64,000 nt of DNA, from NCBI GenBank assembly GCA_951406725.2, contig OX597838.1, forward strand, positions 24,924,001 to 24,988,000, in the 5' to 3' direction. Both the position numbers and the translations under genes were made by a program. Source of the DNA: Octopus vulgaris. Its lineage: Eukaryota. Below, piece by piece: positions 2,863 through 27,938 of the stretch. Position 1 is the stretch's first letter, and each line of letters starts with the position of its first letter. The notes under the pieces were generated by a model that was not told the DNA's origin, searched no databases, and was given only the letters and a program-made list of their open reading frames with translations.

Positions 2863-2865
2863 ATA

Positions 2866-3884: not shown

Positions 3885-4140
3885 AATAAATGCGCCCTTT
3901 TAAAGCCTGGCCAGGCTCATGGGCTCAGTTTCCTGGTTTCAATGGCGTATGTGTTCCCCAGCTGGACGGGACGCCAGTCCATTGCAGCGTTACTCATTTC
4001 TGCCAGCTGAGTGGACTAGAGCAACGTGAAATGAAGTGTTTTGCTCAAGAACACAACGCGTTGCCCGGTCCAGGAATCAAAACCACAATCTTACAATCAT
4101 GATGCTGACACCCTAACCACTAAGCCATGTGCCTACATGC
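3885..4140 (-). mobile_element. tRNA-derived SINE, third family
   Basis: Minus-strand head GGCACATGGCTTAGTGGTTAGGGTG...TTGATTCC and core TTCTTGAGCAAAACACTT; relatives at about 31790, 48975 and 60340. Confidence 0.75.
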
Positions 4141-5316
4141 TAATGAGTTAAAATGACATTAAATCTAGAAACTTGTATTATGAACCAACAGTGGTCTCAC
4201 TCAGATGGGTCAGTATCAAAAAGGTTGATAAAAATGCAAGAAATACACACACACACTCACACACAAAGACCAACTGAGAGAAAAGAAGGCCAAGCCTAAT
4301 CTTTCTAGTCATTGATCTATGATAGTAAAACGACTGATAAATTGAGGGCATGAAATCCGTACTTATGCAATGAATATACTAGCCTTCACTCTGGACAATA
4401 GCCTTGGTCAAAGATTAAGGCTAATATAAAGCTTTTGTGCTCGTTTTTAAATCAAGTACAACTGACATTTACTAAGATGGCCTTCACACTGGACACAATC
4501 CTTGGTAGGAGCTTAAGGCTAATATCTTTTATCCTTCATCTTTTATTTGTTTCAGTGATTAGACTGTGGCCATGCTGGGGCACTGCTTTGAAGAATTTTT
4601 CATTGAATGAATGAATCAACCCCCATACTTAAATTTTTTTTTTGGTAAAGCTGGGTAATTATTTTATTGATTTCTTTTGCCAAACAGCTAAGTTATAGGG
4701 ACATACACAAACCATGTAAACACACTTGTTGACAAGTGGTAGTGGGAGACAAACACATAAAGACAAACAGACACACACACACAGTCTCCTAACAGTTTCT
4801 GTCTAACAAATTCACTCAAAAGGCTTTGGTTGCCCCAAGGCTATAAACCACACGGTCACATTTGTAATACATAAAAAAACATCAACCAAAAACATTAAAA
4901 AAACCCATCTATGTGTGTGTTTGTGAGTGTTTATAAGTGAGTGAATGTGTGTGTGTGTGTGTCCGTGATTAAATGTGATAACAGCTGTTTCGTATAACTC
5001 CACATCTTGGCTATGTACAGGTACTGAAGAAATGCAAATGTAGAGAGTTAATCCCTCTAAGTAATAATGGTTTCAAATTTTGGCCAGGGCCAGCAATTTT
5101 AGAGGCAGGGGCAAGTCAATATCATTAATCATAATCTTTTCTATTATATTTTGGGGAGGGGGCCAGCTGATTACATCGACTCATTTGACTGCGGCCAGGA
5201 CTTATTCTTTGTAAGCTTAGTACTTATTCTATCAGTCTCTTTTGCTGAACTGCTAAGTTACGGGGACGTAAACACACCAGCATCGGTTGTCAAGCAATGG
5301 TGGGGGACAAACACAG

Positions 5317-5353
<37 letters not shown>

Positions 5354-5635
5354 CAACGGTTTTCTTTCAGTTTCCATCTACCAAATCCACTCACAAGGCT
5401 AGAATAGAAGACACTTGCCCAAGGTGCCACGCAGTGAGACTGAACCTGGAACCATGTGGTTGGTAAGTGAGCTACTTGCCACACAGCCACTCCTGCGCCT
5501 GCACAAATGTTTTAAAATAATAATAAATAAGCTTTACATTTGACAAAGTAATCTCAATGCTTTAAGGGCTATACACACACACACACACACACACACAAAA
5601 AAAAAAAAAAAAAGAGCTTTTGTAAACTCACTCAC

Positions 5636-5658
5636 TTTTCAGAAGAGTATCCCTCCAT
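5636..5658 (-). CDS. Candidate alternative first coding exon of LIMK (MEGYSSEK)
   Basis: ATG GAG GGA TAC TCT TCT GAA AA|GTGAGT: strong donor, phase 2, in frame with the 3356 acceptor; preceded by about 600 nt of non-repetitive UTR-like sequence. Confidence 0.55.
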
Positions 5659-8600
5659 TCATCGGTAAAGTAAAAATGAAAATCTATACAAGTAATGGTT
5701 GTTTTAGGCTAAGACAATAGGATATATATAAGTGAAAGAACCCAAAAACCGGAAAATTACTTCATCATAAAGCTAATCCTGGACACAAAGTGAAGAGATA
5801 TCCTTTTATGTTTTTGGTCATCCAGTTAAATATAGAATGATGGAGGAGCGGTGGTAGTGGTGGTGGGTGGTGGGACTTGAGGTCAGACCATATAAAGAGA
5901 AAAATAAACTTGGAAAAAGAAAACAAGAACCCCCCCCCGTCCTTCCCTCTTATTTCTCTTCCTATCTTCAGGCTTCTTATCAGAAAATAAGAGTGGGAGG
6001 CGGCACGGAAGGCACTCTTGTTCTTTGTCTTGGTGTGTTTAGCAAAAAAAAAAAAGGAAACGCTTGTTTCGCTTTTTCTTTTTTTAGAAGCAAACGACAG
6101 ACAGGAAAGAAATATTCCTTTTCATGTAGGAAAAGAAACGGGAGAAAGTCGAAAGAGATGAAGAGGAGGAGGAGCCAGAAGGGGAAATGGAAAAATTTTT
6201 ACACACATATTTGACAAGAGTTTTATTCATTCATCACTGAGCAATTACCATCAACCTGCAACATAAAAATATTCCATTCTCTCTCTCTCTCTCTCTCTCC
6301 TTGTTCTTAAAGATGAAAGACAATTTAGATCATCCTCCTCCTCCTCCTGCTCTCCTCTTCTTTCTGTTATTCTTCAGAGGTCAACAACACAAAAGCCACC
6401 CCCACTTTCAAAAGATTTCTTTTATCAGTCCCCACTTCCAATAAACACCAACATAGGGTCTTGCAATCAATAGAAAAAGAGTGGAGCAGTTTGGGGAGGG
6501 GGGCATGCAGAGAACAAATAGAAATTTGTATTCTCTCAGGGAAATAAGTGTCAAGAGAGAGAAGAAGGAGATAACATACAAGACATCAGTTTCTGGCCTG
6601 GAACTTGAACCATAACACTCCCTTTGGAGGCATTGTGAATTCAAAAGAGGCACTAAAGAGAGAGAGAGAGAGGGGTGATAGCTGGGTTTTTTACTGTAAG
6701 GAGAGTGGCTCATGATCTTTCTTAGAAATAAATTATTTCCACAACTACGTCATAGAAAAGCCAATTAGAAACTCGTTAAGCTATTAAATTCACTTTAAAT
6801 TTTAAAATTTGTTTCAAGAGTCATCAAAATTTTCTTTGTCCAACTGTAACAAGTGTCACGGATGCAGATCCCACTGGAACTCTTTGAGAAGTCTGTTATT
6901 AGCCAGTTCTCAGAGATTTTTTTTTTTTTTTCACTGTGGTGTCTGCTGTAGTCATGTCGATTGGCTTTGGCACCCTTACGACATCAATCACCTGTTGATC
7001 ATCGTTTCACCATGTTCTCTTTTCCATGCTTGCATGGGTTAGATGAGAATTTTTTAGGCAGGTTTCCTATGACCAGATGCCCGTCAGCCCTTGCCCATTT
7101 CCAAGCAAGGTAATATTTCCCCATGTCTAGACAGGTTTTCACAGAAGAGTGGAAACAAACAACCTCACTTGTATATATATATAAGACAGGCTTCTTTCAG
7201 TTTCCGTCTACCAAAATCCACTCACAAGGCTTTGGTCGACCCGAGGCTATAGTAGAAGACACTTGCCCAAGGTGCCACGCAGTGGGACTGAACCCAGAGC
7301 TGTGTGGTTGGTAAGCAAACTACTTACCACACAGTCACTCCTGCGCCTATACGATTACTTATTTTTAGAATAACATTGTCGGGTAAGTGTGAGAAGCCAG
7401 CTCTGGCCAGTTTTAACATAAAACAAGTAAAATATTTGGGCTGGATATATAGCTAAAGCATTAATGGCTCCGTGTGATATTAACTCTTTTGTTAAATTTT
7501 TGTTGAAATACATTGTCTGTTTCAATTGATACTGAAAATGATGAAGAATTTAGCAAAATAACATTGTCCATTATTCGGAATGTAAAGTAACATGAAATGT
7601 TGACAGGTTTGTCAAATGTAATCCTTATTTATTTGCATTGTTTTGAATTAATCACGCAATATCTTGTAGCTTTGAGATTTCAATGATGTGATTGTTTCCT
7701 TTCAGAATGACATTGTAAGGTAGGTGTGAAATGTTGGTTTGAATATGAAAACAGAATATTTGGGCTGGGTATGGTCAATTTAACCCTTTACATTCCGATT
7801 ATTCTATCAGATCATCATCATCATCGTTTAATGTCTGCTTTCCATGCTAGCATGGGTTGGACGATTTGACTGAGGTCTGGTGAACGAGATGGCTGCACCA
7901 GACTCCAATCTGATCTAGCAGAATTTCTACAGCTGGATGCCCTTCCTAATGCCAACCACTCCAAGAATGTAGTGGGTGCTTTTACATGCCACTGGCACAA
8001 GGACCAGTCAGGCAGTACTGGCAACGGCCACGCTCAAGTGGTGCTTTTTATGTGCCACGTGCACAGGAGCTAGTCCAGCAGCACTGGCAACGACCTCGCT
8101 TGAATGTTTTTTCACATGCCACCAGTACAAGTGCCAGTAAGGTGATGCAGGTGCACAAGTGCTAGTAAGGCGATGCAGGTGTAATGCTTATTTATACTTG
8201 AGAAGACCCGTCAACCTAAATGAGATCGTAGTTGCGTCAATGCCAGTGCCACGTAACTGGCATGTAAAAAACACCCATCAAATATTGGGCAATACGCTGT
8301 GCTTGAGAAAATCTGTCAAGCCAAGGGAAATCATAGTCATGGCTGATGCCAATGCCGTATGACTGGTACTCATGCTAGTGGCATGTAAAAAGCACCATTT
8401 GAGCATTGGGCAGTGACAGGTGACCAAGACTTGGTGATAAGGCGGTGAGCTGGCAGAAACGTTAGGACGCCGGGCGAAATGTTTTGCGGTATTTCGTCTG
8501 CCGTTACGTTCTGAGTTCAAATTCCGCCATGGTCGACTTTGCCTTTCATCCTTTCGGGGTCGATAAATTAAGTACCAGTTACACACTGGGGTTGATGTAA

Positions 8601-10756
8601 TAGACTTAATCCCTTTGTCTTGTTTTCATAAATTTTGAATTAAAATCTTCCACCAAACTTTAGTCACAATTTATGTTCCTAACACTAGCTAAATGATAAC
8701 TAAGTTATTTTACTAAATTCTCAAAATAAATACAGTAACAAAAGGGTTAAATGACCACCATATAAAGGTTCTTCCTTACTGACTCATGTCTGCAATTTAT
8801 AGTTCCTGAGAGAGAGAAAGAGGGATCAAATGTTTCTGCTATTTGAAATGTCTTAAGAACAGAGAATGATTACTAAGAAGCCATATTTGGGTGGGTGGAA
8901 TGAACTTTAATCAAAGAATCACTGTTCCAAAGATCAACTTTCAGATGATGTGTCAGACTTCTCGGTGTCACGAGGGGGGAGGGGGCAGACAGCTAGACTA
9001 GCAGTTAAATTTGCTCACAGCAAAACTACTGTGATACAAAACCATTATGATGTTGACCAAGAGTGATGGAGGGCAGAATTGGTAGAGCAATGGGGATGCA
9101 GAAGAAAGAAAGCAATACAAATAAGGGAGATAAATCAAATAGGCACATGGAATGAAATTGGATATATGAATTACTGAATGTAATATGAAAATAAAATCCT
9201 TATTGAAATCTCAGTTTTAGAGGGCACCTCACCTCACCAAAAAAAAAAAAAGACAACAACATAAGATCAAAAATAATGAGTTTTTAGGGTAATAGCTAAT
9301 GACTCAAATAAAAGGGAGATGATGTCAAAAAATTAATTAATTTGCTAATCAAAGTTAATTTGTAAGATTAGAGGTGAAAAAAAACCCCCAAAAAACTTTG
9401 TGAGGCTTTTAAAAAAGTTTCTTTACATTTTGGATTCAAATTTCAGTGATTTTTGTGTTTCGTCCTTCCTAGATCAATACAATAATGTCCCAGTAATAAA
9501 CTGGAGATGATCTTTCTGAATATACCCCTACTATGACTACCACTCCCAAAATTTGTGGGAATTTTGCAGATTTGCTGAATGGAGACTTGTTTATAAAGAG
9601 CATACAGAAGTGTGTGTGTGTGTGTATGTGACTTTAGACTACAAACAGAACATGAAAAATGATTAATGGAGGTGGGGGAGAAATAACATCAATCTCAAAG
9701 TCACTGACGCTCCACCGATGCCAAGAAAACTTATAGTCTTCATGCTTAGCCAAATACACTTCCTTTCCGCTCGATTTCTGAATCTGCTTCACAGAAGCGT
9801 AGTAGCTGGGTTTTGTCTTTTATCGTTTACTTGTTTCAGTCATTAGGCCGCGGCCATACTGGGGCACCGGCTTGAATTTTTAGTCGAATGAATTGACCCC
9901 AGTACCGAGTTTTTAAAGCCCGGTACTAATTCTTATTGGTCTCTTTTGGCAAACTGCTAAGTCATGGGGATGTAAACACACCAACACAGATTAAGTGGTG
10001 ATGGGGTGGGACACACATACACACACACATATATATATATATATTTCTTTATTGCCCACAAGGGGCTAAACATAGAGGGGACAAACAAGGACAGGCGAAC
10101 GGATTAAGTCGATTACATCGACTCCAGTGCGTAACTGGTACTTAATTTATTGACCCCGAAAGGATGAAAGGCAAAGTCGACCTCGGCGGAATTTGAACTC
10201 AGAACGTAACGGCAGACAAAATACAGTTATGCATTTCGCCCGGCGCGCTAACGTGTCTGCCAGCTTGCCGATAGCCACAGCCTTCCCATTGTTTCAACCG
10301 TGTCTTATCATATACTTACATATGTGTATAAGTGTGTGTGTGTGTGTGGTAGATGTAGCCATGTATCATCATAAACAATAAGAAATCTGTCCCTGTTCCC
10401 CTATCGTCATCCCAGCTCAACATCTCAAACCACAACTTCAACAAAGGAATCTGCTAGACATAACACACAAATCTCCCATATCATCTTAAGAACAAAAAGA
10501 AGCAATAATACAATAACAAAATAGGATGGTCACAGCTGGAATGCCTTTAATCATAGGTCATCCTGATTAATGCAGATATGGAATGAACAGGAATAACATT
10601 CTGCACTGTACTTTCCACAAGGAAATACTATAAAATTCTTTTAAAAGGAAACTGAAACTAAAAATATACTAAACAAAGACAAACCCATACAACCCTGAGG
10701 TCAAAACTCCTGGTACCATCAACAGGTTGTGTAAAAGCATAACCCATATATACGAA

Positions 10757-10925
10757 GAGTTCACGAAAAAAACAAAAGACGAAGACAGGTGGTGTATAAA
10801 ACAAACAGATGTATTAGTATAATGCTCAGGAATTGAAAAAGTCTTTTACATTTCGAGCGTATGCTCTTCTACAGAAAGGGACACAGAAAAAAACAAGGAG
10901 AGAAAAAAAAATGTGTGTAGTGGCT
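10757..10925 (-). mobile_element. Second copy of the Penelope-pLTR-like element with variant hammerhead motif (10841-10880)
   Basis: Minus strand CTTT-CTGTAGA-A-GAGC-ATAC-GCTC-GAAA-TGTA-AAAG. Confidence 0.65.
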
Positions 10926-11075
10926 ACCGATCTATCTGGTTGCGTGTTCGCAATGTAAAACCTGCTCTTACTTGTTTGGACATGAACTTGCCAGGAAGCA
11001 TCTGACGGAGCATATGAAATGTTCCGTAGGTAGTTGACACCTGTAGCTAACAGCCACATACTTGTGAAAGCTTAC

Positions 11076-11083
11076 CATAGCAT
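11076..11083 (-). CDS. Weak candidate alternative first coding exon of LIMK (MLW)
   Basis: ATG CTA TG|GTAAGC, phase 2, in unique sequence; poor start context (TAA ATG). Confidence 0.2.
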
Positions 11084-13819
11084 TTAATCTAAATACAGTG
11101 AAATTCTAAGACTTCATTTTTTTTGTGGGCATATATGGGTTAAATTAATAAGGCAGAAGCGGATGAGACCTGAAGCACCACCCTTGGGGTCAGTTGAATT
11201 GATGCACAACTGACTGACTTGGTAATGCTGGGGTGTTTTGGTTTTGAGATGATGATTCAATGAGATCTGTATAAAGAAATGGACAGGTGAGAGAGCTGCA
11301 TTGGTATTTGAAGAGAAGCAGATCAAACGGAAATGGACTAAACTACCCTAAAACCATCAACTAATGAGAGAAATCTGGGGAGGGAGGGCATCATCTCATG
11401 GCAACAGGTTGTGGGTGTGTATGTGTGTGTCTGGAATGGTTTCTGTATGTATGTATGTATACACGATATATGTATATACATATGCAGATATCAAGCTGGC
11501 GAGAGGAGCCTCTATGCAACCGGTCTGTCGATGCATTAAAAATAGCAGCCAAATTGCTCCTAAATTGCAGGTTTAGAGAATGCAGTCACTGGGTCAGGTA
11601 CAGAATGTCTATGATAATAGGTCTGCTTGGTGAGACAAGACCTGGGGTTAAAGAGTATAATTAGAGGTAAAATATGAGCTGACAAATTATTTAGAACAAC
11701 AACGATGACAATGAAGACTAAAAGAGAAGTCCAAGGAATCCCAGAACTAAGGAGGTCGTTATCGACTTGAAGAATGTGATGTGTCAACTTTAAAAAAATA
11801 TCTACCACATTCCTCCTGCATTCACAGTTGTTAAGGGGCCAAGGTGTGCACGCTTAGCAACGTCAGAAAAGTGTAGCCCCGCCTATATTTCTAGATACTG
11901 ATTTCAAATTTTGGCACAAGGCTAGCAAGTTCGGGGGAAGGGGTTAAGTCAATAACACTGACCCCGGTGCTCAACTGGTACTCTTCTTATCGAACCTGGA
12001 AGGATAAAAGGTACGGTTGACCCCAGTGGAATTTGAACTCAGAATATAAAGACGGATGAAACACCGCGAAGCATTTTGCCCAGCATGCTAACAATTCTGC
12101 CAGCTCACCATTGATGTAAATAAAACATTACAATTATAACAACAAAAAAACATTAACCCTCTAAGAGAGATTAATTAAATCACACCAGAAGTAAAGCAAG
12201 TCTGGCTTTTTACTGATCTCGTCCCACAGTTGTACTAAATATGGAAACAGTAAATATACACAGATCACATGCACATCTAAAAATTGAAAGCAGTTACTAT
12301 ATAAAGAATTTTAATTACGAGGTGCATAAATTATTCATTTAGACAAGAAATTTGACTGCACAACATTTGTGTAGTAAATTGTACTGACTGACTATTTAGG
12401 AACACACATACACACACGTGTGTAGGTACGTGTTTGTATACATATACATAACTTATTTCTTTATTGCCCACAAGGGGCTAAACGTAGAGGGGACAAACAA
12501 GGACAGACAAAGGGATTAATTCGATTACATCGACACCACTGTGTAACTGGTACTTAATTTATTGACACCGAAATGATGAAAGGCAAAGTTGACCTCGGCG
12601 GAATTTGAACTCAGAAAGCAGCGGCAGACAAAATACCGCTAAGCATTTCGCCCGGTGTGCTAACGTTTCTGCCAGTTCTACATTTTATAAATACATATCT
12701 TACATACTTCAGTCATTGGACTGCGGCCATTCTGGGGCACAACTTTGAAGTGTTTTAGTCGAACAAATTGACCTCATTACTTTTTTTCGTTTGTTTCTAT
12801 TCTTACTTTGTTTCAGTCGTTAGACTGCGGCCATGCTGGGGCACTGCCTTGACATTTTTAGTCGAATGAATTGACGCCAGCATCTCGTTTTGAAGCCTGG
12901 TGCTTATTCTATCGATTTCTTTTGCCGAAATGCTAGGTTATATGGGACACAAACGCACCAACACCGGTTGTCAAGCGGCGGAGGGGGACAAACATAGACA
13001 CGAAGACACACACACACATATACATACTATCGGTAGTTTTGGCCGACCTGAGACAATAATAAAATATATTTTTCCAAACATGCCCCACAGTGAGATTGAA
13101 CCCGAGACCATGTGCCTGAGAAGCCCGCTTTTAATAAACAATGGTAACACTACGCGTTTAGAACTCTTACCATGTTTATAAACACATAAGCATTTACCAC
13201 CATTCATATCCATTCACATGTACATGTTTTGTGTCGTTAAAGCCTCATGTTAGCCCTGAACGAACGAGCAACTAGCTTATAAATCAAAAGGGGATCCTGC
13301 CGTGGCCATCACGTTCAAGTATAGCTATGACTACAATTACTCAAGCCCTTCCTTCTTTGTTTATCTGAAGACGGAAGCGTTTGATTCGATGCTACTTGGC
13401 TGCTATTTGTAGCAGGTCGGCCGACAACATTCCAGTTTCGTCCCCCTCTTATGTTACTTTGTGTAACAAATAATTTAAGTGTATGTACTAATTCCAGCCG
13501 CAAACCCGTCAATATAATAACACACACACATAAACCACCACCACGCACCAGAAATGATTAAATTACAACAAAATACATTAGTTGACGCTTTCAGGGCGGA
13601 AACTGTACCAAGTAATATATATTTATATAAACAAACTTCTGAAAATTATTTTCTTTCTTTTTTACACATACACACACACAAACTAGACAGACAGGCCAAG
13701 ACAAACGGGTGTTTTGAAGTAGAGCAGTTATATATATATGGGGCCACCAACTTTAGGAAGTTCTACTCCTCGGAAAGAAATAGACATATTAAAAAAAAAA
13801 ACAACAAAAAAACTCCGGG

Positions 13820-14103
13820 TACTACTTAAGAACAGTGGTCCCAGTGCGCGCACTCGCGTACTCGCGCAAGCTAGTCATGACTAGTCGATCCTTTGTGTTT
13901 TTGTTTTATTTACTTTGTTTAAAAAAAAAATTACTTTGTGTTTTTGTTTTATTTACTTTGTTTAACAAAAATTATTTACTTTGTGTAAAAAAATTATTTT
14001 GTTTTATTTACTTTGCTAGGTAGTCGTTGTAGGATCGACTAGTCACGACTAGCTAGCGCGGATGCGCGAGTGCGCGCACCGGGACCACTGTTCTTAAGTA
14101 GTA
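13820..14103. mobile_element. MITE with about 70-bp terminal inverted repeats and TA ends
   Basis: TACTACTTAAGAACAGTGGTCCC...CTAGTCGATCCT is mirrored by AGGATCGACTAG...GGGACCACTGTTCTTAAGTAGTA; AT-rich internal tandem repeats of TTATTTACTTTGT. Confidence 0.85.
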
Positions 14104-15201
14104 ACAAAACTCCTTTGGTTAACAATTCTTATCTTTTTTTTTTTTTTTTCAAATCAACCGTTGCAGATCTTTTATTCTGTAACTGTATCATCTAAACTAC
14201 ATGTACCAGTAATATATTCGGGGTGGGGGGGGCTTCACATAAATCATATCGCACTGATCGTTAAAATTAACGATCAGTCTGACTCAAATGACGACGGCGT
14301 TGGTGGCGGAGCAATATCTAAGTTGAACCTACAATAAAAGCTTCCCCAGCCCTGAATAGACACAGACACACACACAGAGCAATAAATCTACGGTTCACTT
14401 CTCACCTATCTGAATACATAAATACAAGCATAACCACACTCACACACATATACACAAATAGATATTTATACACACACACATTCCTCAAATAGCTAAAGGA
14501 GCGATCAGTATGGCCGGATGTATATCGTGTACAAGACTATGTTTATGCACACACACGTATGTATACGTGTACGTATGTATATACATACATACATATGTAT
14601 GTATATATGTATACATAGCGCCAGTCGAGATATATAACTTGTCATTTGCCAGGAGACGGAAATATTAACTAGGATCGTTTGACATAAATAGGGACAGGAG
14701 AACAAAAGGACAAGCTGTGGTGAGCAACTTGTGATAAAAAGTGAAACATATTTGGCGTTCGCATAATAGGCTTTTTATTTTTATTTTTTTATACTTGTTT
14801 CATTCATTTGACTGCGGCCATGCTGGAGCACCGCCTTTAGTCGAGCAAATCGACCCCCCAGGATTTATTCTTTGTTAAGCCTAGTACTTATTCTATCGGG
14901 TCTCTTTTTGCCGAAACGCTAAGTTACGAGGACGTAAACACACCAGCATCGGTTGACAAGCGATGTTGGGGGTGGGGGGAGGGCAAACACACACACACAC
15001 ACACATATATAGACGGGCTTCTTTCAGTTTCCGTCTACCAAATCTACTCACAAGGCTTTAGTCGGCCCGAGGCTATAGTAGAAGTAGAAGACACTCGCCC
15101 AAGGTGCCACGCAGTGGGACTGAAACCCATTTGAAGGGAAGAGAAAGGGTAGATATAGGATGTACCCGATCTTCTTCAATTACACCTTCTCCCCGACTTA
15201 C

Positions 15202-15281
15202 GACCGAGTTCCGTTCAGACTGACAGGTCGAAAATCGATCTGGTCGTATGTCGGATTTAAATCTTTCAACACTATTTTCAT
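15202..15281 (-). CDS. Candidate alternative first coding exon of LIMK (MKIVLKDLNPTYDQIDFRPVSLNGTRS)
   Basis: 80-nt ATG-initiated frame ending TC|GTAAGT (consensus donor), phase 2. CpG-rich unique sequence, with a GTTGCCAGAT promoter-type motif about 80 nt upstream. Confidence 0.55.
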
Positions 15282-15533
15282 TCAAACACAGCTGATGCTT
15301 GAAAGCGACTGAGTGAGAGATAGTGACAAGCAGTGGATGCCTGAGTCTGAGAGAGGCTTGCGTTGCCAGATGCTGCCATAGTTATCCTACACGCAGCTAC
15401 CCAACGCCCCAAAATCGATTATTCGTTTATCTACATATTTTTTGTGGTCGTAAGTCGAGGCGTATTATTACGTCCCTTACACGTCTGAATTATTCATTCC
15501 TTACATTTTCCAAAATACTTTGACAGTACATAC

Positions 15534-15850
15534 CAGCAGTTCTCAACCATTTAAAAAAAAAATCTATCTATGGACCCCCTTTGATTACCATTTCATTGTG
15601 TTTGACCCCCATTGCCATTCGATGTTTTAAAGTTTAGTTTTATAGTTACTTTTTTCAAAATTCTTATTTTGCTTTTCACACATTACCTTGTGTAGGCTGA
15701 ATTGTAAAAACGTTTAAGAAACCTGTTTCTTACAATAAATACATTAATACATCTAAAGCAACATTTTTCATGGACTCAATTTTCTATTTTGCTTCAAAAG
15801 TTTTATATGGACCACCAAAGGATCATACGGATCCAGGTTGATAGATATTG
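15534..15850. mobile_element. Degenerate hAT/Charlie-type MITE
   Basis: Left end CAGCAGTTCTCAACC, internal GGACCCC motifs, right end remnant ...CAGGTTGATA. Confidence 0.45.
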
Positions 15851-16104
15851 GTTTATTCAGTATACGTACAATGTCCCATTTTTCTACGTATACTTTAAGG
15901 CTGATTAAATAGATATTAAATAGAGTTGTGGTGCACCTGAGCACTGTATACAATAATTTCATTATTATATTAAAGTAAGGGCTTTTGGAAAACCGCGAGG
16001 GTCCTAAACTAGAATCAAGAGACAGTTCTATAACATGCTTTCTAGACAACAACGCTTAGAGGCTTAGGTAAATAGCATTTAGGGAGCACCTAAATCGCAC
16101 TTAC

Positions 16105-16145
16105 GGTAAATAGCACCTACGGGGGAGCCAGGGGTTGCAACACAT
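16105..16145 (-). CDS. Candidate alternative first coding exon of LIMK (MCCNPWLPRRCYLP)
   Basis: AAA ATG TGT TGC ... TTA CC|GTAAGT, phase 2; possible acceptor CTCCTATTTCAG| with exon start at 16261; CpG-rich unique region. Confidence 0.4.
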
Positions 16146-17251
16146 TTTACGGGGATGTGGATCGTCGTGAATTAGGGTCAGCAGTGCTATGCATCGGTTT
16201 CCTGCTTGACACTGTTTTCGAGTCGAACTGTTCACAAATGAATTTTTTGCAATTTAGGACGCTGAAATAGGAGATTACCGGGTGTCGGACGGGAGTATTG
16301 TGACAAAGACAAATTGTGCCCCCACAAATATTTAGTCATAGTTTTCATTTATTTACATCAAGCGTTACCATAGTAACTGAGCGTCATAGCTACTGGAGAA
16401 TATAGGGCCTATAATACATGGATACATAGTCGTGTGTGTGTGTGTGCGCGCGCGCGTGCAAGTGCAACATGTGAATGTTTGTGTGTGAGTGTATGTACGA
16501 GAGAGTGTGTGTGTTTGTTCGAGTGTTCGTGTGTGTGTGCATGCGTGAGAAATGGAGAGAAGGTACAAAATGACAATTGTCAAAATAAATGTTAAACTTA
16601 AAAAATGACCGAAGTTGTACCTGACCAGTCGGAGCTGACCTGGGACAGAACAACAATTTTTAAGGAAGAACTCTAGTCTTATTTCTCTCCGTCTGACGTG
16701 TTTCCTTCCAAGTAAATAGTAAAGAATGAGTCTTAGGAAACTTGAGAGAATTGCGAGGGCAAGGGAAACGTGAGGGGGAACCATTCGATAAAAATTTGCA
16801 GAAATACTTACAATATATGTGAGTTGTTGTAGACCATGCTTTTACTAGATGGCTTTGTATATAACCGAAAACGTGAGGAAGGTTAGCCGTAGTTCCTTTC
16901 GTATTTGGAGATAACGGGTGATAAATAAAGTGTTTCCTCACGGCGGAGACAAAAACGAAAATGTGAAACAAGAGAGCAGAAGAAAGGGGAAGAGAGGAAG
17001 TTAGAGGGGGGAGGAGGAGAGGAAAGACTGAAGCAAAGAGTGTGAGGGGGAGAATGAGGGAGGCTTAAGTTATGAATGAGAAAGACAAAAAAAAAAAAAA
17101 CGAGGGAGGAGCGAAAGGAAGGGAATTGAAGAGAAAACGAGAGAGAATGAGGGGGAGGCAGACAATACATGGATTGAGTGGGCGATTAATGAGAAATGGA
17201 CACGGAAATGACACACACACATACACATTTACACACACACACGTAAGAGTG

Positions 17252-17320
<69 letters not shown>

Positions 17321-17332
17321 CAGGAGTCAGGA

Positions 17333-17417
17333 GTCAGGATGGCCGAGCGGTCTAAAGGCGCTGCGTTCAGGTCGCAGTCGGGTCTTCCCGGCGTGGGTTC
17401 GAATCCCACTTCTGACA
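17333..17417 (+). tRNA. tRNA-Leu(CAG)
   Basis: GTCAGGATGGCCGAGCGGTCTAAAGGCGCTGCGTTCAGGTCGCAGTCGGGTCTTCCCGGCGTGGGTTCGAATCCCACTTCTGACA. Acceptor stem GTCAGGA/TTCTGAC-type pairing, anticodon arm CTGCG-TTCAGGT-CGCAG, long variable arm CGGG/CCCG, T arm GTGGG-TTCGAAT-CCCAC. One extra A in the D loop. Confidence 0.92.
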
Positions 17418-17423
17418 AACTAA

Positions 17424-17433
17424 TTTTTCTTTT
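17424..17433 (+). terminator. Pol III terminator of tRNA-Leu
   Basis: TTTTT and TTTT runs starting 7 nt after the tRNA 3' end. Confidence 0.75.
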
Positions 17434-17835
17434 AATGGCGGTGCCCCAGCATGGCCACAGCTCAAGAGCTGAAACTGGAAAACATAAACATATATATATT
17501 TATTTATTCTTTATACCAATCTAATTCCGAAACGCGCGCACGTGGGTAACCTAATATCGATTGATTTTCGTTATTTTTTACCTTTTGCCTGCGTGGATTG
17601 TTTTCAAGTACTTTGGTTTTTCTGGGAGCCCCTTTTAAAGTAGAAGGAATAGCTAAGATTTTTTGACTGCTATTTCGAAACTTCGGTATGTGGTGAAGCA
17701 AATCTTTGCTGAACCCTAATTATAAAGTATTACTTAAGCTTACCATGAAATGGTCTTTTTCATGCCGAATTCAACTTGGTGAAATTACTGATTACTTCTT
17801 AATTAATTTTACCCTTTGTTGTTGTTATATATATG

Positions 17836-17879
<44 letters not shown>

Positions 17880-17989
17880 CATACATACACACACACACAG
17901 GTAGACAGATATCTTTTATCTTTTACTATTTTCAAGTCAAAGGCTGGGGCCTTCCAGCGTGTTTGGGTCTCCTTTCTGTACTGATTTTG

Positions 17990-18420
17990 GCGAATTAGCG
18001 AGTTGGACGAAGTCACTCTTCTTTGGGGCCCCCTGCTGCGATTGTGAGTCCATCTGGTATTTCAGATAAAAATTTGTCCAGATGCTCCTTGAAGACCTCC
18101 ACATGCATACCTTGCAAATCTCAAAAGCTGTTTGTCAGAATGTCGAATAGTTTTGGACCCTTGAAACCCAAGCTGTGGGGTCCTTATTCGAGATGGTGAA
18201 GACGGAGCCTTTGGTATTATACAGTGCTGTCCAGTTCGATGGTTGGTACAGCTTTCAATACCAAAGTTGGGAGCTATCCCTTCCAGGACCTTCTACGTGA
18301 ATGTCACTGTATATCTTTCTCACCTTCTCTCTATGAAATAGAGCTTCAGTTCCTTTTGGCCCCTCCACCTGTTTCACCGAGTCAATTATCTTTGTGTAGT
18401 GGCGTTGAATTGTCTCAAGT
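17990..18420 (-). pseudogene. CR1-clade LINE ORF2 C-terminal remnant
   Basis: Frameshifted and stop-containing translation LETIQRHYTKII...KELKLYFIERR*ERY...KVLEGIAPNFGI...SLGFKGPKLFDIL...FKEHLDKFLSEIPD, typical of CR1-group ORF2 ends. Confidence 0.8.
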
Positions 18421-18504
18421 TACCCCTGAGGTACATAGATATATGCACTTCATACACGTATTTTCATACATAATCACTCACATACACACGTTTATTGGAA
18501 GAAA

Positions 18505-19015
18505 TCTATATATATAAAACTCTAGTTGTGTGAGTGTCTGTCCCCTTCGATTTAGATTCCTAATTCCTCCCACATTTTGCGGTGCAGTTTAACCAAATTC
18601 GGGTATCTTATAGTCGTGATTAATATCGAGCCCGTCTGGCTATTAGCGCGCGTCAACGATGAGTCTACGATTTTAAAAATAATTTAACATCATTTTTGAT
18701 TCCATTTTAATGCATAAAATGCATCGTGTGTCGATGGCGGCGGAGTTGGCGTCCACGGTCACAGCTGCACCTGTTTGCTTCTCCCCCTTCCCTCCCTCGT
18801 GAAGCTGCGGGGAAGGGAGTGTAAGAAATCAACGTCGTAATGCGTTGTGAAGGAAACCAGCGTTCTTTTAGAACAACGACTTCATGGCTTGAAGACACCA
18901 AAATAGAAATGGCTAAGAAAGCCCGAATTGGCATCTATAAGGGAAGTAACTCTCTAAAAATGCTTATATAGTTATTTCCCTTACAAACCCGAGCAACGCC
19001 GGGCGATACTGCTAG
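18505..19015 (+). mobile_element. Non-autonomous Helitron-like element
   Basis: 5' TC (TCTATATATATAAAA), subterminal hairpin CCCGAGCAACGCCGGG, 3' CTAG; inserted between A and T without a TSD. Confidence 0.82.
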
Positions 19016-19096
19016 TAGGAATATAAAACTCAATACAAGTGTGTGTGTGTGTTATAAGAATGACTTAAGGGCTGACAGTTTCGTGCAAGGAACTTC

Positions 19097-19131
<35 letters not shown>

Positions 19132-20204
19132 AAAAGAGTATTCAAGCAGAACTTTTCCGTGTCTGAGCGACCCTCAGGCGACAGACATAAAATTAACTGG
19201 ATATCGAACAGAGAGGTAAAACTTGGGAATCGACGAAGTCAACAGTTTCGAACGATGTGTGTATGTGTGAAATTGTATGTGTGTGTATATGTTTGTGTGT
19301 GTGTGATAGGAATGATGAAGGGGAGAGTGAAAAATAAAGGGGGAGAGTGAAAGGAAGAGAAAGAATGTGAGAGAGACGGAGGGTGAAAGTAGGAGGGGAG
19401 AGAGAGTGTATGTGAGAAAGATGGGGAGGAGGAAGAGAATAAGAATGAGAGCGAGGAAAGAGATCAAAAGAGAATGAAGAAGACAAAATATAAGAACTTA
19501 ACTACAAATAAACAAGGAGTAGGAAATTAAAAAAAAGCGTACGTATTGGGTACAGAAAGAGAAGGAAGGAAGCAAGCAAGAGAGAGAGAGAGAGAGAGAG
19601 AGTAGTGGAACAGAGAGAGAGAGAAAGAAAGAGAGTAGTGGAACAGAGAGAGAGAGAGAGAGAAAGAGAGTAGTGGAACAGAGAGAGAGATAAGATGAGA
19701 AAGAAAAAAGTGATCGAAAAATTGTAAAGCTTGTGTGTGTGTGTGAGTGAAAGCCTTCATCAGCAACAAGTGACACTGAAAGATTTCCTTTCGACAGCCA
19801 GAACAAAACACATATATTATGTATATATATGAGTCACATGATTGATCCCCTTAACGCAGGAAAGAGGAGGGGGAGGAGGAGGGAGAAACGGGGGGAAGGG
19901 GAAGCGAGAAAGATATGGTGCAGAGAGAGAGAAAGAGCGCGAGAGGAGGAGGAGGGAGAAACGGGGGAGGGGAAGCGAGAAAGATATGGTGCAGAGTGAG
20001 AGAGAGAGAGCAAGAGAGGAGGCGGGGGGGGGGGGGAACTTTCTCCTCTGACCCAGCTCGACATTCTCGAAAATCCCTGCCGACAAAACTCCCTACATAC
20101 TTTTTTTTGTTTCTTTTCTTTTTTTTTGTTCGGTTTCGCTCTCCGCCTTCCCAAAACACGGCCGGCCCTAACATTCCTATCTTATCGTCTGCTTTGCTTG
20201 CTTG

Positions 20205-20235
<31 letters not shown>

Positions 20236-20904
20236 TCCTTTCTTCCCTTTCGTGTGTGTACCCTTAAACTTCTACAACCATACCAACAGCGTCGTAACTG
20301 GAAATTAATGAATGAAATATCCGTCGACCTCTTCTCCCTCTTTACAACAATGTCACTCCCGGTTACCCCCACTCCTTCCTACGGAACAGAAAAGGAAACT
20401 TGAACACACACACACACACACAAATAAAATGTGCGCGTCAATGGGGGTGAGAACGAAGTTAATAAATAAATAAATAAAACACGAAAACGGGAAGCTTTTA
20501 ATTATGGGTTCACTTCTTATTTGTTACACAACTGAGTCAGCAGCTGAACGATTTACTTTTAGTAAATTGCATTGGAAAAGGTATGAAACCCCCCCCCCCA
20601 ACACACACACACGCGCGCGCGCTCTGTCTCTCTCTCCCCCTCGCTCTTTCTCTTGTTTAAATAGACGCGCATAACATGCATGTCAAAGGAAAAAGCGTAT
20701 GTTCTTTTTCTCTCCCTCTCTCTAGTATTTCAACAGTTTATTTAATTAGGGTATTATTGAACATAAAGAAAGACGTGGGGGGAGAGGGAGAAGGCAAGAG
20801 ATAGAGAGAGAGAAAGAGAGGGGGAGGAAGGATGTAAGAGATTGTGAAAGGTGCAAGGGAACGGAGAGGGGAGAGGGACACAGTAAGAAGGTAAAGCATG
20901 CGAG

Positions 20905-21270
20905 GAGAGAAAAAGTAGGAAAAGGAAGAGGAATTAGATATATGGAGAACAGTGAAAGGGAGAGAGAGAGAAAGAAAAGGGAGACTGAGATGTGAGAGAG
21001 AGAGAGAGATGGGGAGGTGTAGATGGGAGAAAAAGTAGGAAAAGGAAGAGGAATTAGATATATGGAGAACAGTGAAAGGGAGAGAGAGAAAAAGAAAAGG
21101 GAGACTGAGATGTGAGAGAGAGAGAGAGAGAGATGTGGAGGTGTAGATGGGAGAAAAAGTAGGAAAAGGAAGAGGAATTAGATATATGGAGAACAGTGAA
21201 AGGGAGAGAGAGAAAAAGAAAAGGGTGACTGAGATGTGTGTGAGAGAGAGAGAGAGGTGGGGAGGTGTAC
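20905..21270. repeat. Purine-rich tandem repeat, about 120-124 bp x3
   Basis: GAGAAAAAGTAGGAAAAGGAAGAGGAATTAGATATATGGAGAACAGTGAAAGGG recurs; its GTAGGA marker lies at 20915, 21035 and 21159. Confidence 0.85.
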
Positions 21271-21751
21271 AAGGGAAAGAAGAGAGGAGAGGAAAAGAAG
21301 AAAAGGATATAAGAAAAAAATTGGAAAAGCATATAAGAAAGAAAAAAATTGGAAGGAAATAGATGAAGAGGGGAATGGAGTGTGTGAAAGGGAGGGGGGA
21401 GAGAAATAGTGAAATCTCAATATTTATGTAAACTGGAGAATATTTTTTTTCATGTTGTTCCAAAATAAATTGTTTCAAATGAAAGCTGATGACAGAGGAA
21501 CCAGCAAAGAGTAGGAAATATGAAACTGAATGAAAACTTTTAAGTCACCAAAAACAGAGTAAATTTCCTTAAAGACAAATAAAAGAAAGAAAAAACAAAC
21601 AAACACAAAAAGTCTATAAGGAAACACTATTTTTTTCAAGGGCAAAGAAAAATCGCGTGAATTAGAGGTTGCAGCTTTCATCATCATTCTTATCGTTTTA
21701 GCATCCACTTTTTTCCCCATGCTTGCATGCGTCAGAAGGAATTCGTAGCCA

Positions 21752-22016
21752 CAGGCGGCTTTAAACCAATTAAATCTGCTCTAATTGAGCCCTGCATCAA
21801 GAAAGGGCTCAGTGCACATGCTCAAGTGGAGGATGTGATGATGAATTCGTTGTATATCATTGTGGCTAATGGTGGAGCCTCAAGCCCTCAATGCTTTTTT
21901 TGGCTGGGACTGGCATATTACACAAAGCATAAAACATCAACCTTCAGCTTTTGTGGAGTAGAGGGCCCAACTGATAATTCTCTAATTGGGCCCTGCACTT
22001 CCTAGTGCCAGCCCTG
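21752..22016. mobile_element. Degenerate hAT-type MITE
   Basis: Ends CAGGCGGCTT... and ...GCCAGCCCTG, with internal repeated CTCTAATTG(A/G)GCCCTGCA. Confidence 0.45.
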
Positions 22017-24230
22017 TTTAGTGTACAACACTTTCTACAGCCAGGTCCTTTCCAGTTGCCAACACTCGTGTTCACACACACACACGTGCATATACACACA
22101 TCAGGCTTCCTTCAGTTTTTGTCCACTAAGTCCACTCACAAGGTTTTGGTTGACCTGAAGCCATAAAAGACGACACTTGCCCCCAAGGTGCCATGCAGTG
22201 GTACTGAACCTGAAACCCTATTGGTTGGATAGCGAAAATATGTGGCACATCTAGAAATGCCTTGCAATGCACCAGTGCACTGTGGGCAGACTCTTTGCAA
22301 TCCTCTGTGATACTGTCTCAAGTGTGGAGCATAAGTGCCCTTAAGTTTAATCCTTTAGCAGTTAAACTAGCCATATCCAGGCTAAATATGCTACCAGATC
22401 CAGCCTATCACACCTACCCTTCAATGCCACTATAAAATATACAATCTCAAAATTTCTAAGCAACAAAACTTGCAACTGTCAAGTCATGACCATTTTTTAC
22501 CAATACTAAGGCCTGCATTCTGTTCTTTTCTCATGGCTGTGTTTCTCTCATTCTTTCTTTCTTTCTCTCTCACTCTCTCTCTCCATATCCCTCCCCAAAT
22601 GCAACCCCCCCCTCTCTTCTCAGTTTATTCTGCTTTGTGCTCTTCAGTTTCATCAACCCAATACAATGGCAAAATTCCATATTGAAATACCATGTAAAAT
22701 ACTCTGGAGTAAGGGGGTGTCAGTGGTGGTGGTGGCATTGGTGCAAGGGTGACGATGGTGGTGGCGTTAGGGTGGCGATGGCATGAGGGTGGTGATGGTA
22801 CATCATCATTCTCTACTTGTGGGTAATAAAGAAATAGGTACATCATAATTCTCTATTAAATGTGTTTAGCAGGAGAAAAATACTGGAAAACATCAATACA
22901 TGTTAGAGTGATAGAAACAAGGAAAGTATTAGGTGGTCATAAGATGTGCTAGAAATAACAGTTAAATTGCCCGTAAATGACATATCAAAAAAAAAAAATT
23001 TTTTTTTTTTTGCACAATCGTAGGAGTTCCTTTGTGTAGAACACAAACTCACATTTTCTGAAAATTCCCCAAAAAATATTTAAAAAAGTTGCGGGGTTAT
23101 AGGGGGTTCTTAAACCAGAATTCTGCCAAGAAACTAACTTTACAGCTAGGATAAAAAAATACAAAAAAAATAACGACCCCTTGAACATCATCACCATCAT
23201 TCTGAAAGGATTTCGGATCCAAACAAACAAACCAGTACATCATGTGACACTTGTCTGTTATCCCCTCCTTGTAGAATCGGTGCCATCCACACCCCTATCC
23301 CAACTACACTTCCACAGCTCTCAAAAAATGCAAAGGAATTTCGCTCTCACTGAAATGATTGGCCTGCCCAAAGAAGAAATAAAAGCCAAAGTATTGGCGC
23401 CTACAAAGTCGTTCTCCATTGCCAGCACCGGTGCCCCCCATCCTGCTCCACCAGGATACTGAATGGTCTTTGGATGGTTGACTGGTTGGTTGGTTTGCTG
23501 GCTGGTTGGGTTATATTTAGCAACACACCCTTTCTAACAAAGTCATTTCATACGCGTACAGTTTATATAAAGAACATTTGAAATAAAAAGGTTATCGACC
23601 CATCACTTTCCATCACCCCATTTCTACACGCGCATACACACACACAAATAGATGTACATCTATACATTTATATATATTTGTATACACATACATGTGTGTG
23701 TGTGTGTATCTATCTATCTATCTATCTATCAATATATATATATAAATATATCTTTTATTTGTTTCGGTCATTTGACGGTGGCCATGCTGGAGCACCGCCT
23801 TTAGTCGAGCAATCGACCCCAGGACTTATTCTTTGTAAGCCTAGTACTAATTCTATCAGTCTCTTTTGCCAAACCGCTAAGTTATGGGGACGCCAACACA
23901 CCAGCATCGGTTGTCAAGCAATGGCTGGGAGACAAACACAGGCACACAAACATACACACACATATATACACACGACCGGTTTCTTTCAGTTTCCATCTAC
24001 CAAATCCACTCACAAGGCTTTGGTTGGCCCAAGGCTATAAAAGAAGACACTTGCCCAAGGTACCACGCAGTGGGACTGAACCCGGAACCATGTGGTTGGT
24101 AAGCAAGCTACTTACCACGCAGCCACTCCTGCGCCTATATATAATATATCTGTGTGTGTGTGCATATATATGTCTATACATGTATGTATATATATGTTTA
24201 TATATATGTTTGTATATATATTCATAAGCA

Positions 24231-24285
<55 letters not shown>

Positions 24286-24559
24286 ATCTTCATAAAGTGC
24301 AAGTACCATTGACAAATATTCCAGTTATTTGATCAACAGATTAATCCACTTATTAAATTAGAGTCATACATAGATGCATACAGAGAAACTTGCAGACATA
24401 TGCAAAGAGACAGACACCCGCCATACACACACATGTCCACAACCATACGTATACATCCATACACACATGACCATGTTTTTGTCTTGGTTATCTTTCTGAA
24501 GTAGAGTTGACCCCTTCAATATGTGAGAGGAGACCAGAATATTATGTATACAGGCTCAC

Positions 24560-24627
24560 CCACTCCTTGTTTGTCTTATCAACTTCTGCAGCAGGGTGTG
24601 GCAGGGTTGGCTTGTCTCCTTCTCCAT
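24560..24627 (-). CDS. Candidate alternative first coding exon of LIMK (MEKETSQPCHTLLQKLIRQTRSG)
   Basis: GCA ATG G start context; 68-nt frame ending GG|GTGAGC, phase 2; long polypyrimidine acceptor ...ATCTCTTTAG| with exon start at 24662. Confidence 0.5.
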
Positions 24628-25369
24628 TGCCAGAGTGGCTGCAGTAAGTCACTGGATAGGAACTAAAGAGATATTTTGGAGTTTGGAGGGAGAGAGGAGA
24701 GGTAAAGAGTTTGCGGATTGTGGGGAGAGAGAGAGAGAGAGAGAATGAGAGATGTTATTAGAAAGTGAGAAAGAGTGTTGTGTGAGAGAAAAAAAATTGA
24801 GATGAATCACAGAGGGAGAGAGAGGAGAGAGGAAGAGAGGGAGAGAGAGAGGGAGGGAGGGAGGGAGGGAGGGAGGGAGGGAGAGAGAGGTGAGAAGGGA
24901 GGAGAGATAAAGAAAGAATGGAAGATGTACCAGATAGTAGGAGAAAGAGATGCATCAAAGAGAAAGATGTATCAGAAGAGAGAGACAGAGAGAGAGACTG
25001 TACCAGAAGACAAAAAGATGTTGGTGTGTGTGTGTGTGTGTGTACCAGAAGAGAGATAGAGAGAGATTTAGAAGAGATGCCAGTCATGTGCATTGAAGTG
25101 TGAATGAGTAGCAACAAGGAACTGAAGTGGTGACCCCCCCTCCCGGAAAGACTTAGAAAGAGAAGGAATAGGGATAGAATAAAGAGAAAGAAAGAAGGAA
25201 AAAAAAAGGACAGAACCATCTAGAGAGAAAGAAACCTTTAGTTGTGATAAAAAAAAATATGGAGGAGCCAAAGAGTTTAAGGGTGGGGGGGAAGAGGGTA
25301 GATGTAGAGACATGATGTCTATCAATCTCTGAGAGAATATATACATTTTCTGTATATGCTGCTACATCA

Positions 25370-25439
<70 letters not shown>

Positions 25440-25470
25440 TACACACACAAGCACATATACACACACACAC

Positions 25471-25531
<61 letters not shown>

Positions 25532-25695
25532 CATATACACCCATGCATACACACAAACATATAGACACATATGTACATACATACACACATATATATATAC
25601 ATGTGCACATACACACACACGCACATACACACACACATATATACACACACGCACATACACATATATATATATATATATATACACACACACTCACG

Positions 25696-25733
<38 letters not shown>

Positions 25734-26272
25734 GCATAAACCTTTACTGAAAACAGCCAAAAGAAATTAATCATATTATAATCAGCTTCCTTCTGTCTCC
25801 TTGAATCTTACTTTGAGTTCTATGTTCTATATTGCACCATTCCTGAAAAAATGAAGTGTGTTTTATGTGTGTGTGTGTGTGTGTGTGTGTGGTGGGGGGG
25901 GGGGGGCGAGCAATGCATGCACAATCACACGCACCCAACTGGAATGCTTTTGCCCATCACTGTCAGCATTTGGTGACTCTCGTCGCAATTGATACTATTA
26001 CTGCTCCCAGAGAAGCTCGACAAGATTCCGCATTACTATGTCATGATAACACGAATGCTTCACATTTCATATCCTGATTCTTCATCAGGATGGATGAGTG
26101 AGAGAGAGAGACAGAGCATGTAACTCCTTCCACTGGCTGCTTGATCTACGTCTCCAAAGGACAAATGAGGATGCTAGCTAGGGCTTGCCCTAAAAGCTGT
26201 GTCAGGAATATCCAACCTTATGTTGGTTGCTACACAGTTTGAGATGTTAAAATTTTTTGCAAGATTTTGTTG

Positions 26273-26903
26273 TTTTTGGAGCCTTAAAGGAAATGACTTT
26301 ATCTTTGAGCCAAACAAGAGAACCAGTTCAATTTGTTTGTTCAGTTTTGGAGCCTTATAGGAAATGCTTTTATCTCTGAGCCAAGCAAGAAAACCAGTCC
26401 AATTTGTTTGTTCAGTTTTGGAGCCTTATAGGAAATGCCTTTATCTCTGAGCCAAACAAGAGATCCAGTTCAATTCTTGTGGTCAGATTTGGAGCCTTAT
26501 AGGAAATGCCTTTATATTTGAGCCAAACAAGAGATCCAGTCCAATTTGTTTGTTCAGTTTTGGAGCCTTATAGGAAATGCCTTTATCTCTGAGCCAAACA
26601 AGAGATCCAGTTCAATTCTTGTGGTCAGATTTGGAGCCTATAGGAAATGCCTTTATCTCTGAGCCAAACAAGAGAACCAGTTCCATTCTTGTGGTCATTT
26701 TTGGAGCCTTATAGGAAATGCCTTTATATTTGAGCCAAACAAGAGATCCAGTCCAATTTGTTTGTTCAGTTTTGGAGCCTTATAGGAAATGCCTTTATGT
26801 CTGAGCCAAGCAAGAAAACCAGTCCAATTTGTTTGTTCAGTTTTGGAGCCTTATAGGAAATGCCTTTATCTTTGAGCCAAACAAGAGAACCAGTCCAATT
26901 CTT
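26273..26903. repeat. 71-bp minisatellite, about 9 copies
   Basis: GGAGCCT recurs at 26278, 26349, 26420, 26491, 26562, 26633, 26703, 26774 and 26845. Confidence 0.97.

Positions 26904-27907: not shown

Positions 27908-27938
<31 letters not shown>

What the first reader, a model, noticed from the sequence alone, without database searches (positions are those of the whole stretch)
5636..24662. Ladder of phase-2 alternative first exons feeding a half-LIM acceptor
Seen: five ATG-initiated short frames in unique sequence end at strong donors (5636 GTGAGT, 11076 GTAAGC, 15202 GTAAGT, 16105 GTAAGT, 24560 GTGAGC). All are in phase 2, as the 3356 exon requires. No exon for the first LIM1 zinc finger (WH..CF) was found in the ~60 kb upstream. 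Established: vertebrate LIMK2b uses an alternative first exon giving one and a half LIM domains, and the LIM/PDZ region restrains kinase activity. Inference: a multi-promoter array producing LIMK isoforms with swapped N-termini, convergent with LIMK2b. Caveat: candidates were picked by eye, and other strong donors (about 23052, 33674) do not fit.
Basis: partly seen in the sequence, partly recalled or inferred. Interest (0 to 1): 0.75.

Follow-up and report, generated by a model that had tools for sequence, protein, structure and literature searches.

The report
Octopus LIM kinase swaps first exons

Summary
Acceptor 3356 (minus strand) opens an exon that starts mid-LIM1 (Pfam position 29 of 58). 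The "missing" WH..CFR exon exists 213,175 nt upstream, outside the window. Its criterion is chance-level (27 sense versus 22 antisense frames), and two candidates lie in dispersed repeats. Only 24560 stays plausible (about 40%). Non-LIM starts at this same phase-2 junction are annotated in molluscs, a brachiopod, ticks, a hemichordate, starfish and a fish LIMK1, so this is a widespread LIMK2b-like design, not a cephalopod invention. One octopus exon resembles a venerid clam exon, hinting at deep conservation. Promoter status and function are inferred. New member of a known kind.

The parts
3221..3356 (-). Shared acceptor exon (136 nt): second zinc finger of LIM1 and start of LIM2; entered in phase 2, first base G
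   Evidence: in spliced contigs of 6 of 6 runs; one match in the genome
1847..1956 (-). Next exon (LIM2)
179..370 (-). Exon ending LIM2 and entering the PDZ region; PDZ, S/P and kinase exons follow within 17 kb below the window start
3357..64000 (-). Window part of the 213,175-nt phase-2 intron that splits LIM1. Two exons joined to 3356 lie beyond the window: the canonical first-finger exon at G000:C25:25140532-25140640, ending WHQTCF(R), and an alternative exon with donor at G000:C25:25055303 giving the hydrophobic 17-residue start MDIIAIIFSVILFFLS(M), where the junction itself forms AT|G
   Evidence: Canonical exon: profile hit E 0.00039, next best 0.21, spliced in X1 and X7. Hydrophobic exon: run X3; best junction-anchored match of 62 intron frames, to venerid clam isoform P0012
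16812..16940 (-).
   Evidence: Spliced to 3356 in X4 (study P3) and X11 (study P4, other species label); the contigs stop at 16940 and 16937; 6 of 9 residues shared with the start of P0002
16960..17200 (-). CT-rich tract upstream of the 16812 exon (promoter-like, inferred)
33675..33956 (-).
   Evidence: Run X2 loose end maps here; no ATG in 282 nt, seen in 20 of 755 same-size intron windows
24560..24760 (-).
   Evidence: not joined in 4 of 4 runs; X4 and X11 use 16812; no similarity to other species' starts
5636..5662 (-).
11076..11083 (-).
15202..15281 (-).
   Evidence: an X1 contig runs unspliced across the donor
16105..16145 (-).
   Evidence: an X2 contig runs unspliced across the donor

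Best explanation
This is the genome's single LIM kinase gene, whose 213-kb phase-2 intron splits LIM1, and at least three exons inside that intron, likely each with its own promoter, are spliced to the same acceptor as the canonical LIM exon, which would give kinases with one and a half LIM domains and swapped N-termini. SHOWN: the intron, the canonical exon and four distinct junctions into 3356. INFERRED: (1) the three intronic exons are first exons of separate promoters (CT-rich tracts, AUG-poor leaders, contigs ending there); (2) products are full two-LIM LIMK, half-LIM1 LIMK with a 9-residue start, half-LIM1 LIMK with a hydrophobic 17-residue start, and, from the AUG-free leader, either a form starting at the Met closing exon 3356 (after four out-of-frame AUGs) or a poorly translated RNA; (3) the main effect is sample- or tissue-specific choice of localisation and partner binding, with partial relief of N-terminal autoinhibition possible but untested; (4) the proximal promoter shortens the transcription unit from over 230 kb to about 34 kb, allowing faster induction.
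For: Junctions: X1 and X7 to the canonical exon, X2 to 33675, X3 to the exon 128 kb upstream (131303 in continued window numbering); X4 and X11 to 16812. All have GT donors and the AG acceptor. Independently of RNA, the two coding exons rank first and second of 62 sense-strand intron frames for junction-anchored similarity to other species' starts: scores 29 and 28, against 23 for the best other sense frames and 18 for the best of 56 antisense frames; shuffles reached them 2 and 0 of 5000 times. A CT-rich tract marks 8 of 193 sense donors, including all 3 supported intronic exons (antisense 4 of 211; post hoc rule). All 48 distinct non-LIM starts among 268 fetched proteins end in a residue codable as NNG; 23 are not Arg and so cannot be read-through of the acceptor (p about 9e-5). 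Human LIMK2b lacks half of LIM1 (PMC10000741 passages) and has its own promoter (PMC3932979 passages). N-terminal motifs set LIMK localisation (PMC4429338 passages). The N-terminal region lowers kinase activity (PMC10730565 passages).
Against: Only assembled contigs were available, from runs whose RNA status is a guess, with one contig per run at the acceptor, so starts, strand and levels are not shown. The 33675 and 131303 junctions each rest on one run and a 30-letter loose end. The 33675 exon has an acceptor-like pyrimidine tract and AG at 33946, so it could be an internal stop-containing cassette. The 131303 exon has an upstream out-of-frame ATG at 131384. 25 of 48 database starts end in Arg and some may be gene-model read-through (P0001 aligns with the window's own acceptor tract). 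No protein evidence.
Confidence: 0.8

Rival explanations
1. One reading: the five listed frames (5636, 11076, 15202, 16105, 24560) are the alternative first exons, and the locus lacks a canonical first zinc finger.
For: The frames and phase-2 donors exist. Three are single copy. 24560 shares the CT-rich tract and single-ATG leader of the real exons. Contigs drop minor isoforms, and table 5 was cut (1245 joints not shown).
Against: The canonical exon exists and is used. 0 of 6 runs join these donors. The selection rule is chance-level. Two candidates are in repeats. Similarity scores of the four scored frames are 7-12, reached by 1291-3784 of 5000 shuffles; the 3-residue 11076 frame was too short to score.
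Confidence: 0.04
2. Only the canonical and 16812 exons matter; 33675 and 131303 are cryptic starts or cassettes arising as noise in a huge repeat-rich intron (33675 possibly a stop-containing cassette for decay).
For: Each is seen in one run. 33675 has no AUG and carries an acceptor-like AG at 33946. Translation from it must pass four out-of-frame AUGs.
Against: Each is the only assembled form at the acceptor in its run, at depths 24.6 and 43.9, like the canonical form (36.8, 19.1). The X2 contig runs about 11 nt past the AG rather than on for the 109-nt canonical exon (length arithmetic, letters not seen). 131303 resembles a bivalve exon. Proteins starting at the same downstream Met are annotated in Dreissena, Lingula, Crassostrea and Pomacea.
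Confidence: 0.13
3. The junctions are artefacts of assembly or come from a processed copy of the gene rather than from mRNA.
For: Runs are only guessed to be RNA.
Against: Joins fall exactly at GT-AG borders in four studies. The genome holds one match for the acceptor exon. The 16812 start has protein counterparts in unnamed assemblies (P0002, P0121-P0123, P0128).
Confidence: 0.03

Closest known systems
Human LIMK2b (and the N-truncated LIMK1 mRNA)
   Same: Lacks half of LIM1 and keeps LIM2, PDZ and kinase; LIMK2a and 2b have separate promoters and differ in tissue and localisation (passages of PMC10000741, PMC3932979, bioRxiv 10.64898/2026.06.23.733925). A tarpon LIMK1 isoform (P0200) switches N-terminus at the same junction.
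   Different: Here a single LIMK gene has at least three such exons in a 213-kb intron, one AUG-free and one hydrophobic. Human sequences were not fetched, so identity of the human junction and any sequence homology to the LIMK2b exon were not tested.
Mouse testis tLIMK2
   Same: An alternative initiation exon gives a form lacking LIM domains (PMC10000741 passage), like the predicted product of the 33675 leader.
   Different: The predicted octopus form would keep the second finger of LIM2; its translation is untested.
Annotated LIMK isoforms of other lophotrochozoans (Mercenaria, Ruditapes, Mytilus, Crassostrea, Haliotis, Liolophura, Lingula and others)
   Same: Canonical plus one to four non-LIM starts at the same junction in 10 of 10 clusters; junction-formed Met in Mercenaria and Mytilus as in the 131303 exon.
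   Different: Most starts share no detectable sequence with the octopus exons, except the venerid one. These are predicted gene models, not tested proteins.
Octopus myosin-VIIa alternative first exon (SPLASH, PMC10370119)
   Same: A tissue-specific, unannotated first exon in an octopus cytoskeletal gene (passage).
   Different: A different gene; LIMK is not mentioned in its main text or its one held supplement.

Membership tests
LIM domain kinase (LIMK) | Two N-terminal LIM domains | tested here: met
   Canonical exon plus exons 3356, 1956 and 370; junction in X1 and X7
LIM domain kinase (LIMK) | PDZ, S/P-rich linker and C-terminal kinase downstream | tested here: met
   13 exon matches to P0001 residues 7-648 in order on the same strand, 55-100% identity; Pfam PDZ and kinase on homolog P0002
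LIM domain kinase (LIMK) | Cofilin phosphorylation | not testable with these tools
   Needs an assay
LIMK2b-type half-LIM isoform | First zinc finger of LIM1 replaced by a short start from another exon | tested here: met
   Junctions 16812 and 131303 to 3356; acceptor at LIM position 29 of 58
LIMK2b-type half-LIM isoform | Own promoter (true first exon) | tested here: inconclusive
   Contigs of two studies stop at 16940 and 16937; CT-rich tracts; no cap or raw-read data
LIMK2b-type half-LIM isoform | Tissue-specific use | tested here: inconclusive
   Four forms among 6 runs, one per run; tissues not given, and contigs drop minor forms
LIMK2b-type half-LIM isoform | Same junction as, or homology with, the human LIMK2b exon | not tested
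   No human sequence fetched; the same junction is shown only for tarpon LIMK1 P0200
   0 of 6 runs, but contigs cannot show absence
   27 versus 22 frames; 2 of 5 in repeats

The most novel reading that the evidence does not exclude
The mid-LIM1 intron of LIMK is an ancient bilaterian N-terminus swapping point, and one swapped exon (octopus 131303, venerid clam P0009/P0012) has been kept since the cephalopod-bivalve split as a hydrophobic membrane-targeting tag: an invertebrate counterpart of LIMK1 palmitoylation, delivered by promoter choice. LIMK2b would then be a remnant of an ancestral design rather than a vertebrate invention.
Probability: 0.3. Interest if true: 0.55.

Novelty: new member of a known kind. 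Interest (0 to 1): 0.33.

Why it matters
It gives a concrete, RNA-anchored isoform map of the single LIM kinase in a likely octopus genome: a kinase central to actin remodelling in neurons, with front ends chosen across a 213-kb intron. The comparison suggests half-LIM LIMK isoforms are a widespread animal design rather than a vertebrate LIMK2 quirk, which makes 'what does the first zinc finger of LIMK do' testable in a single-gene system. It also shows that picking first exons by ATG plus donor consensus in a cephalopod intron is uninformative without RNA.

Tried and rejected
1) Frame at donor 17744 resembling the scallop 7-residue start (score 23): rejected, it lies in a dispersed repeat (2054 candidates; 40 scored, the other copies at 90-96%). 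2) Loss of the first LIM finger in cephalopods, suggested by P0001, P0002 and all listed members of the P0002 cluster lacking it: rejected, the exon is in the genome and spliced. 4) A search for shorter cephalopod fragments with other starts gave 12 hits of 13 candidates, none informative. 5) The first exon of the canonical isoform (140-163 nt beyond the canonical exon in X1 and X7, by length) was not located in the next 97 kb; two weak candidates only. 6) Local BLAST within 264 kb found no repeats for any candidate and so missed the two repeats that the whole-genome search found. 8) A third-order Markov null gave fewer donors than the real sequence (15.2 +/- 3.4 frames) because repeats carry donor-like words, so the antisense strand is the fairer control. 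9) No earlier scan notes matched. 10) Nagata 1999 (PMC1220529), on which LIM domain inhibits the kinase, is not held, so I rely on later papers' summaries. 11) The set of 50 starts contained a few mis-cut canonical proteins (e.g. P0005, P0033, P0110), which only widens the null; one search uses the cleaned set of 48.
Full report
WHAT THE WINDOW IS. The window is G000:C25:24924001-24988000 of a 2.8-Gb genome. Its minus strand carries three LIM kinase exons, 3356-3221, 1956-1847 and 370-179. The best named match of the first is an Argonauta LIMK at 98%, so an octopod is inferred. The exon has one match in the genome among 5 candidates. PDZ, S/P and kinase exons follow in order within 17 kb below the window. 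The exon at 3356 matches LIM profile positions 29-56 of 58, i.e. it starts half-way through LIM1, and needs a phase-2 donor. Numbers above 64000 below continue the window numbering (add 24924000 for the C25 position).

CHECKING THE OBSERVATION. The five frames and donors are present as described, but the rule behind them has no power. ATG frames in phase 2 ending at GT[AG]AG[TC] number 27 on the sense and 22 on the antisense strand of 3400-64000, and 75 and 75 over the whole intron. The 15202 and 11076 candidates lie in dispersed repeats (39 other copies among 40 scored in each). 24560, 16105 and 5636 gave one match each.

THE CANONICAL EXON. A profile built from 99 fetched first-finger sequences, run over the window plus the next 200 kb, gave one hit (E 0.00039; next 0.21). 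It is a 109-nt exon at G000:C25:25140640-25140532 with an AG acceptor and a phase-2 GT donor, 213,175 nt from 3356.

RNA. I laid 6 of the 24 listed runs, all assembled contigs whose RNA status is a guess. (window 1-20000; X1, X2, X4, X11): contigs of X4 (study P3) and X11 (study P4, another species label) join 370-178, 1954-1847, 3354-3219 and 16810-16940/16937. The 2-nt shift is the shared GT; the true donor is 16812. This exon has a single ATG (16837) in strong context and encodes a 9-residue start sharing 6 residues with the start of the unnamed protein P0002. X1 and X2 had no depth on it. One search (3150-3450; X1, X2, X3, X7) gave one contig per run. The loose ends map to the canonical exon (X1, X7; both study P1), to the exon ending at 33675 (X2, P1) and to an exon ending at 131303 (X3, P2). 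Contigs drop minor forms and one search's joint table was cut, so this is not proof of absence. Low-depth contigs cross the 15202 and 16105 donors unspliced.

ANATOMY OF THE INTRONIC EXONS. The 33675 exon has an in-frame TAG two codons before the junction and no ATG in 282 nt (20 of 755 same-size windows lack one). The first in-frame AUG is the Met ending exon 3356, after four out-of-frame AUGs. Proteins starting at that Met are annotated in Dreissena, Lingula, Crassostrea and Pomacea. An acceptor-like AG at 33946 leaves a cassette reading open. The 131303 exon encodes a 17-residue start with mean hydropathy 2.5, the highest compared; the junction forms AT|G, and an out-of-frame ATG lies upstream. 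A CT-rich tract 100-450 nt above the donor marks 8 of 193 sense donors, including all three supported exons and also 24560 (antisense 4 of 211; rule chosen after seeing the exons). 24560 also has a single ATG in good context, so I leave it at about 40%.

COMPARISON. Of the 120 LIMK relatives listed (of 328 found), 99 have the first finger, 20 have a non-LIM start at the same junction and 1 neither. All 10 lophotrochozoan clusters opened hold both kinds. In one search both kinds also appear in tick, hemichordate, two starfish clusters, oyster and tarpon LIMK1, but not among the listed members of the Apis, Daphnia, Penaeus and Limulus clusters, which were listed only in part for the larger ones. 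All 48 distinct non-LIM starts end in a residue codable as NNG, as a phase-2 splice onto a G requires. 23 are not Arg and so cannot be read-through; 25 end in Arg and some may be gene-model artefacts. Scoring 62 sense-strand intron frames against other species' starts, anchored at the junction, put the two RNA-supported coding exons first: 131303 with 29 (venerid clam P0012; 2 of 5000 shuffles) and 16812 with 28 (P0002; 0 of 5000). I had noticed the clam resemblance by eye first, and the margin over chance is 6 points, so homology is a lead, not a result.

HOW IT LIKELY WORKS. Shown: four junctions into one acceptor. Inferred: internal promoters in the long intron replace the first zinc finger with short starts, chosen differently between samples. 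In vertebrates LIMK2b lacks half of LIM1 (PMC10000741, passages) and has a promoter separate from LIMK2a (PMC3932979, passages). The isoforms differ in tissue and localisation (bioRxiv 10.64898/2026.06.23.733925 and PMC10671453, passages). An N-terminal palmitoyl motif targets LIMK1 to spines (PMC4429338, passages). The N-terminal region lowers activity about ten-fold with an unresolved mechanism (PMC10730565, passages). I therefore favour changed localisation and partner binding as the main effect, with partial de-repression possible. A shorter transcription unit (about 34 kb versus over 230 kb) may speed induction; this is my inference.

NOVELTY. Half-LIM LIMK isoforms from alternative starts are known in vertebrates and already annotated in other invertebrates. 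Drosophila, Nematostella and Amphimedon each have a single LIMK (PMC3305314, passages). Four searches of the held library found no paper on cephalopod or mollusc LIMK isoforms; the nearest is an octopus myosin-VIIa first exon (PMC10370119, passages and one supplement, no LIMK mention). Subscription papers and bioRxiv supplements were not visible and may bear on this. Whether the design is ancestral or repeatedly re-born in a conserved intron is unresolved; the shared junction is shown, shared exon ancestry mostly is not.

VERDICT. Real architecture, wrong parts list; new member of a known kind; interest 0.33.

Noticed in passing
window 17333-17417 (+): The only tRNA gene (Leu, CAG) found in the window and the 200 kb above it lies about 400 nt upstream of the inferred 16940 start, facing away; it could help keep this promoter open or bound it.
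   Followed up: partly
P0002, P0121, P0123, P0128 (unnamed proteins): Their counterpart of the 16812 start has Gly at position 2 and Ser at position 6, resembling the N-myristoylation pattern (recalled consensus); this genome has Val at position 2, so the signal would be absent here.
   Followed up: no
G000:C25, continued window numbering 211449/211445, 179543, 118650 (-): Further strong donors with a CT-rich tract but no in-frame ATG; possible additional AUG-free leaders, or the chance share (antisense control 4 of 211).
   Followed up: no
window 17690-17860: A dispersed repeat with short internal 18-nt repeats and inverted self-matches at its ends, at least 40 copies.
   Followed up: no
window 26274-26903: A 71-bp tandem array, 8.8 copies, 89% matches.
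   Followed up: no
P0001 (Argonauta LIMK model): Its N-terminus aligns with the in-frame pyrimidine tract of this window's acceptor, so that gene model probably reads into the intron and misses the distant exons.
   Followed up: partly
P0127 (unnamed protein): A further 26-residue non-LIM start at the same junction in the P0002 cluster, with no counterpart found among this intron's frames.
   Followed up: partly
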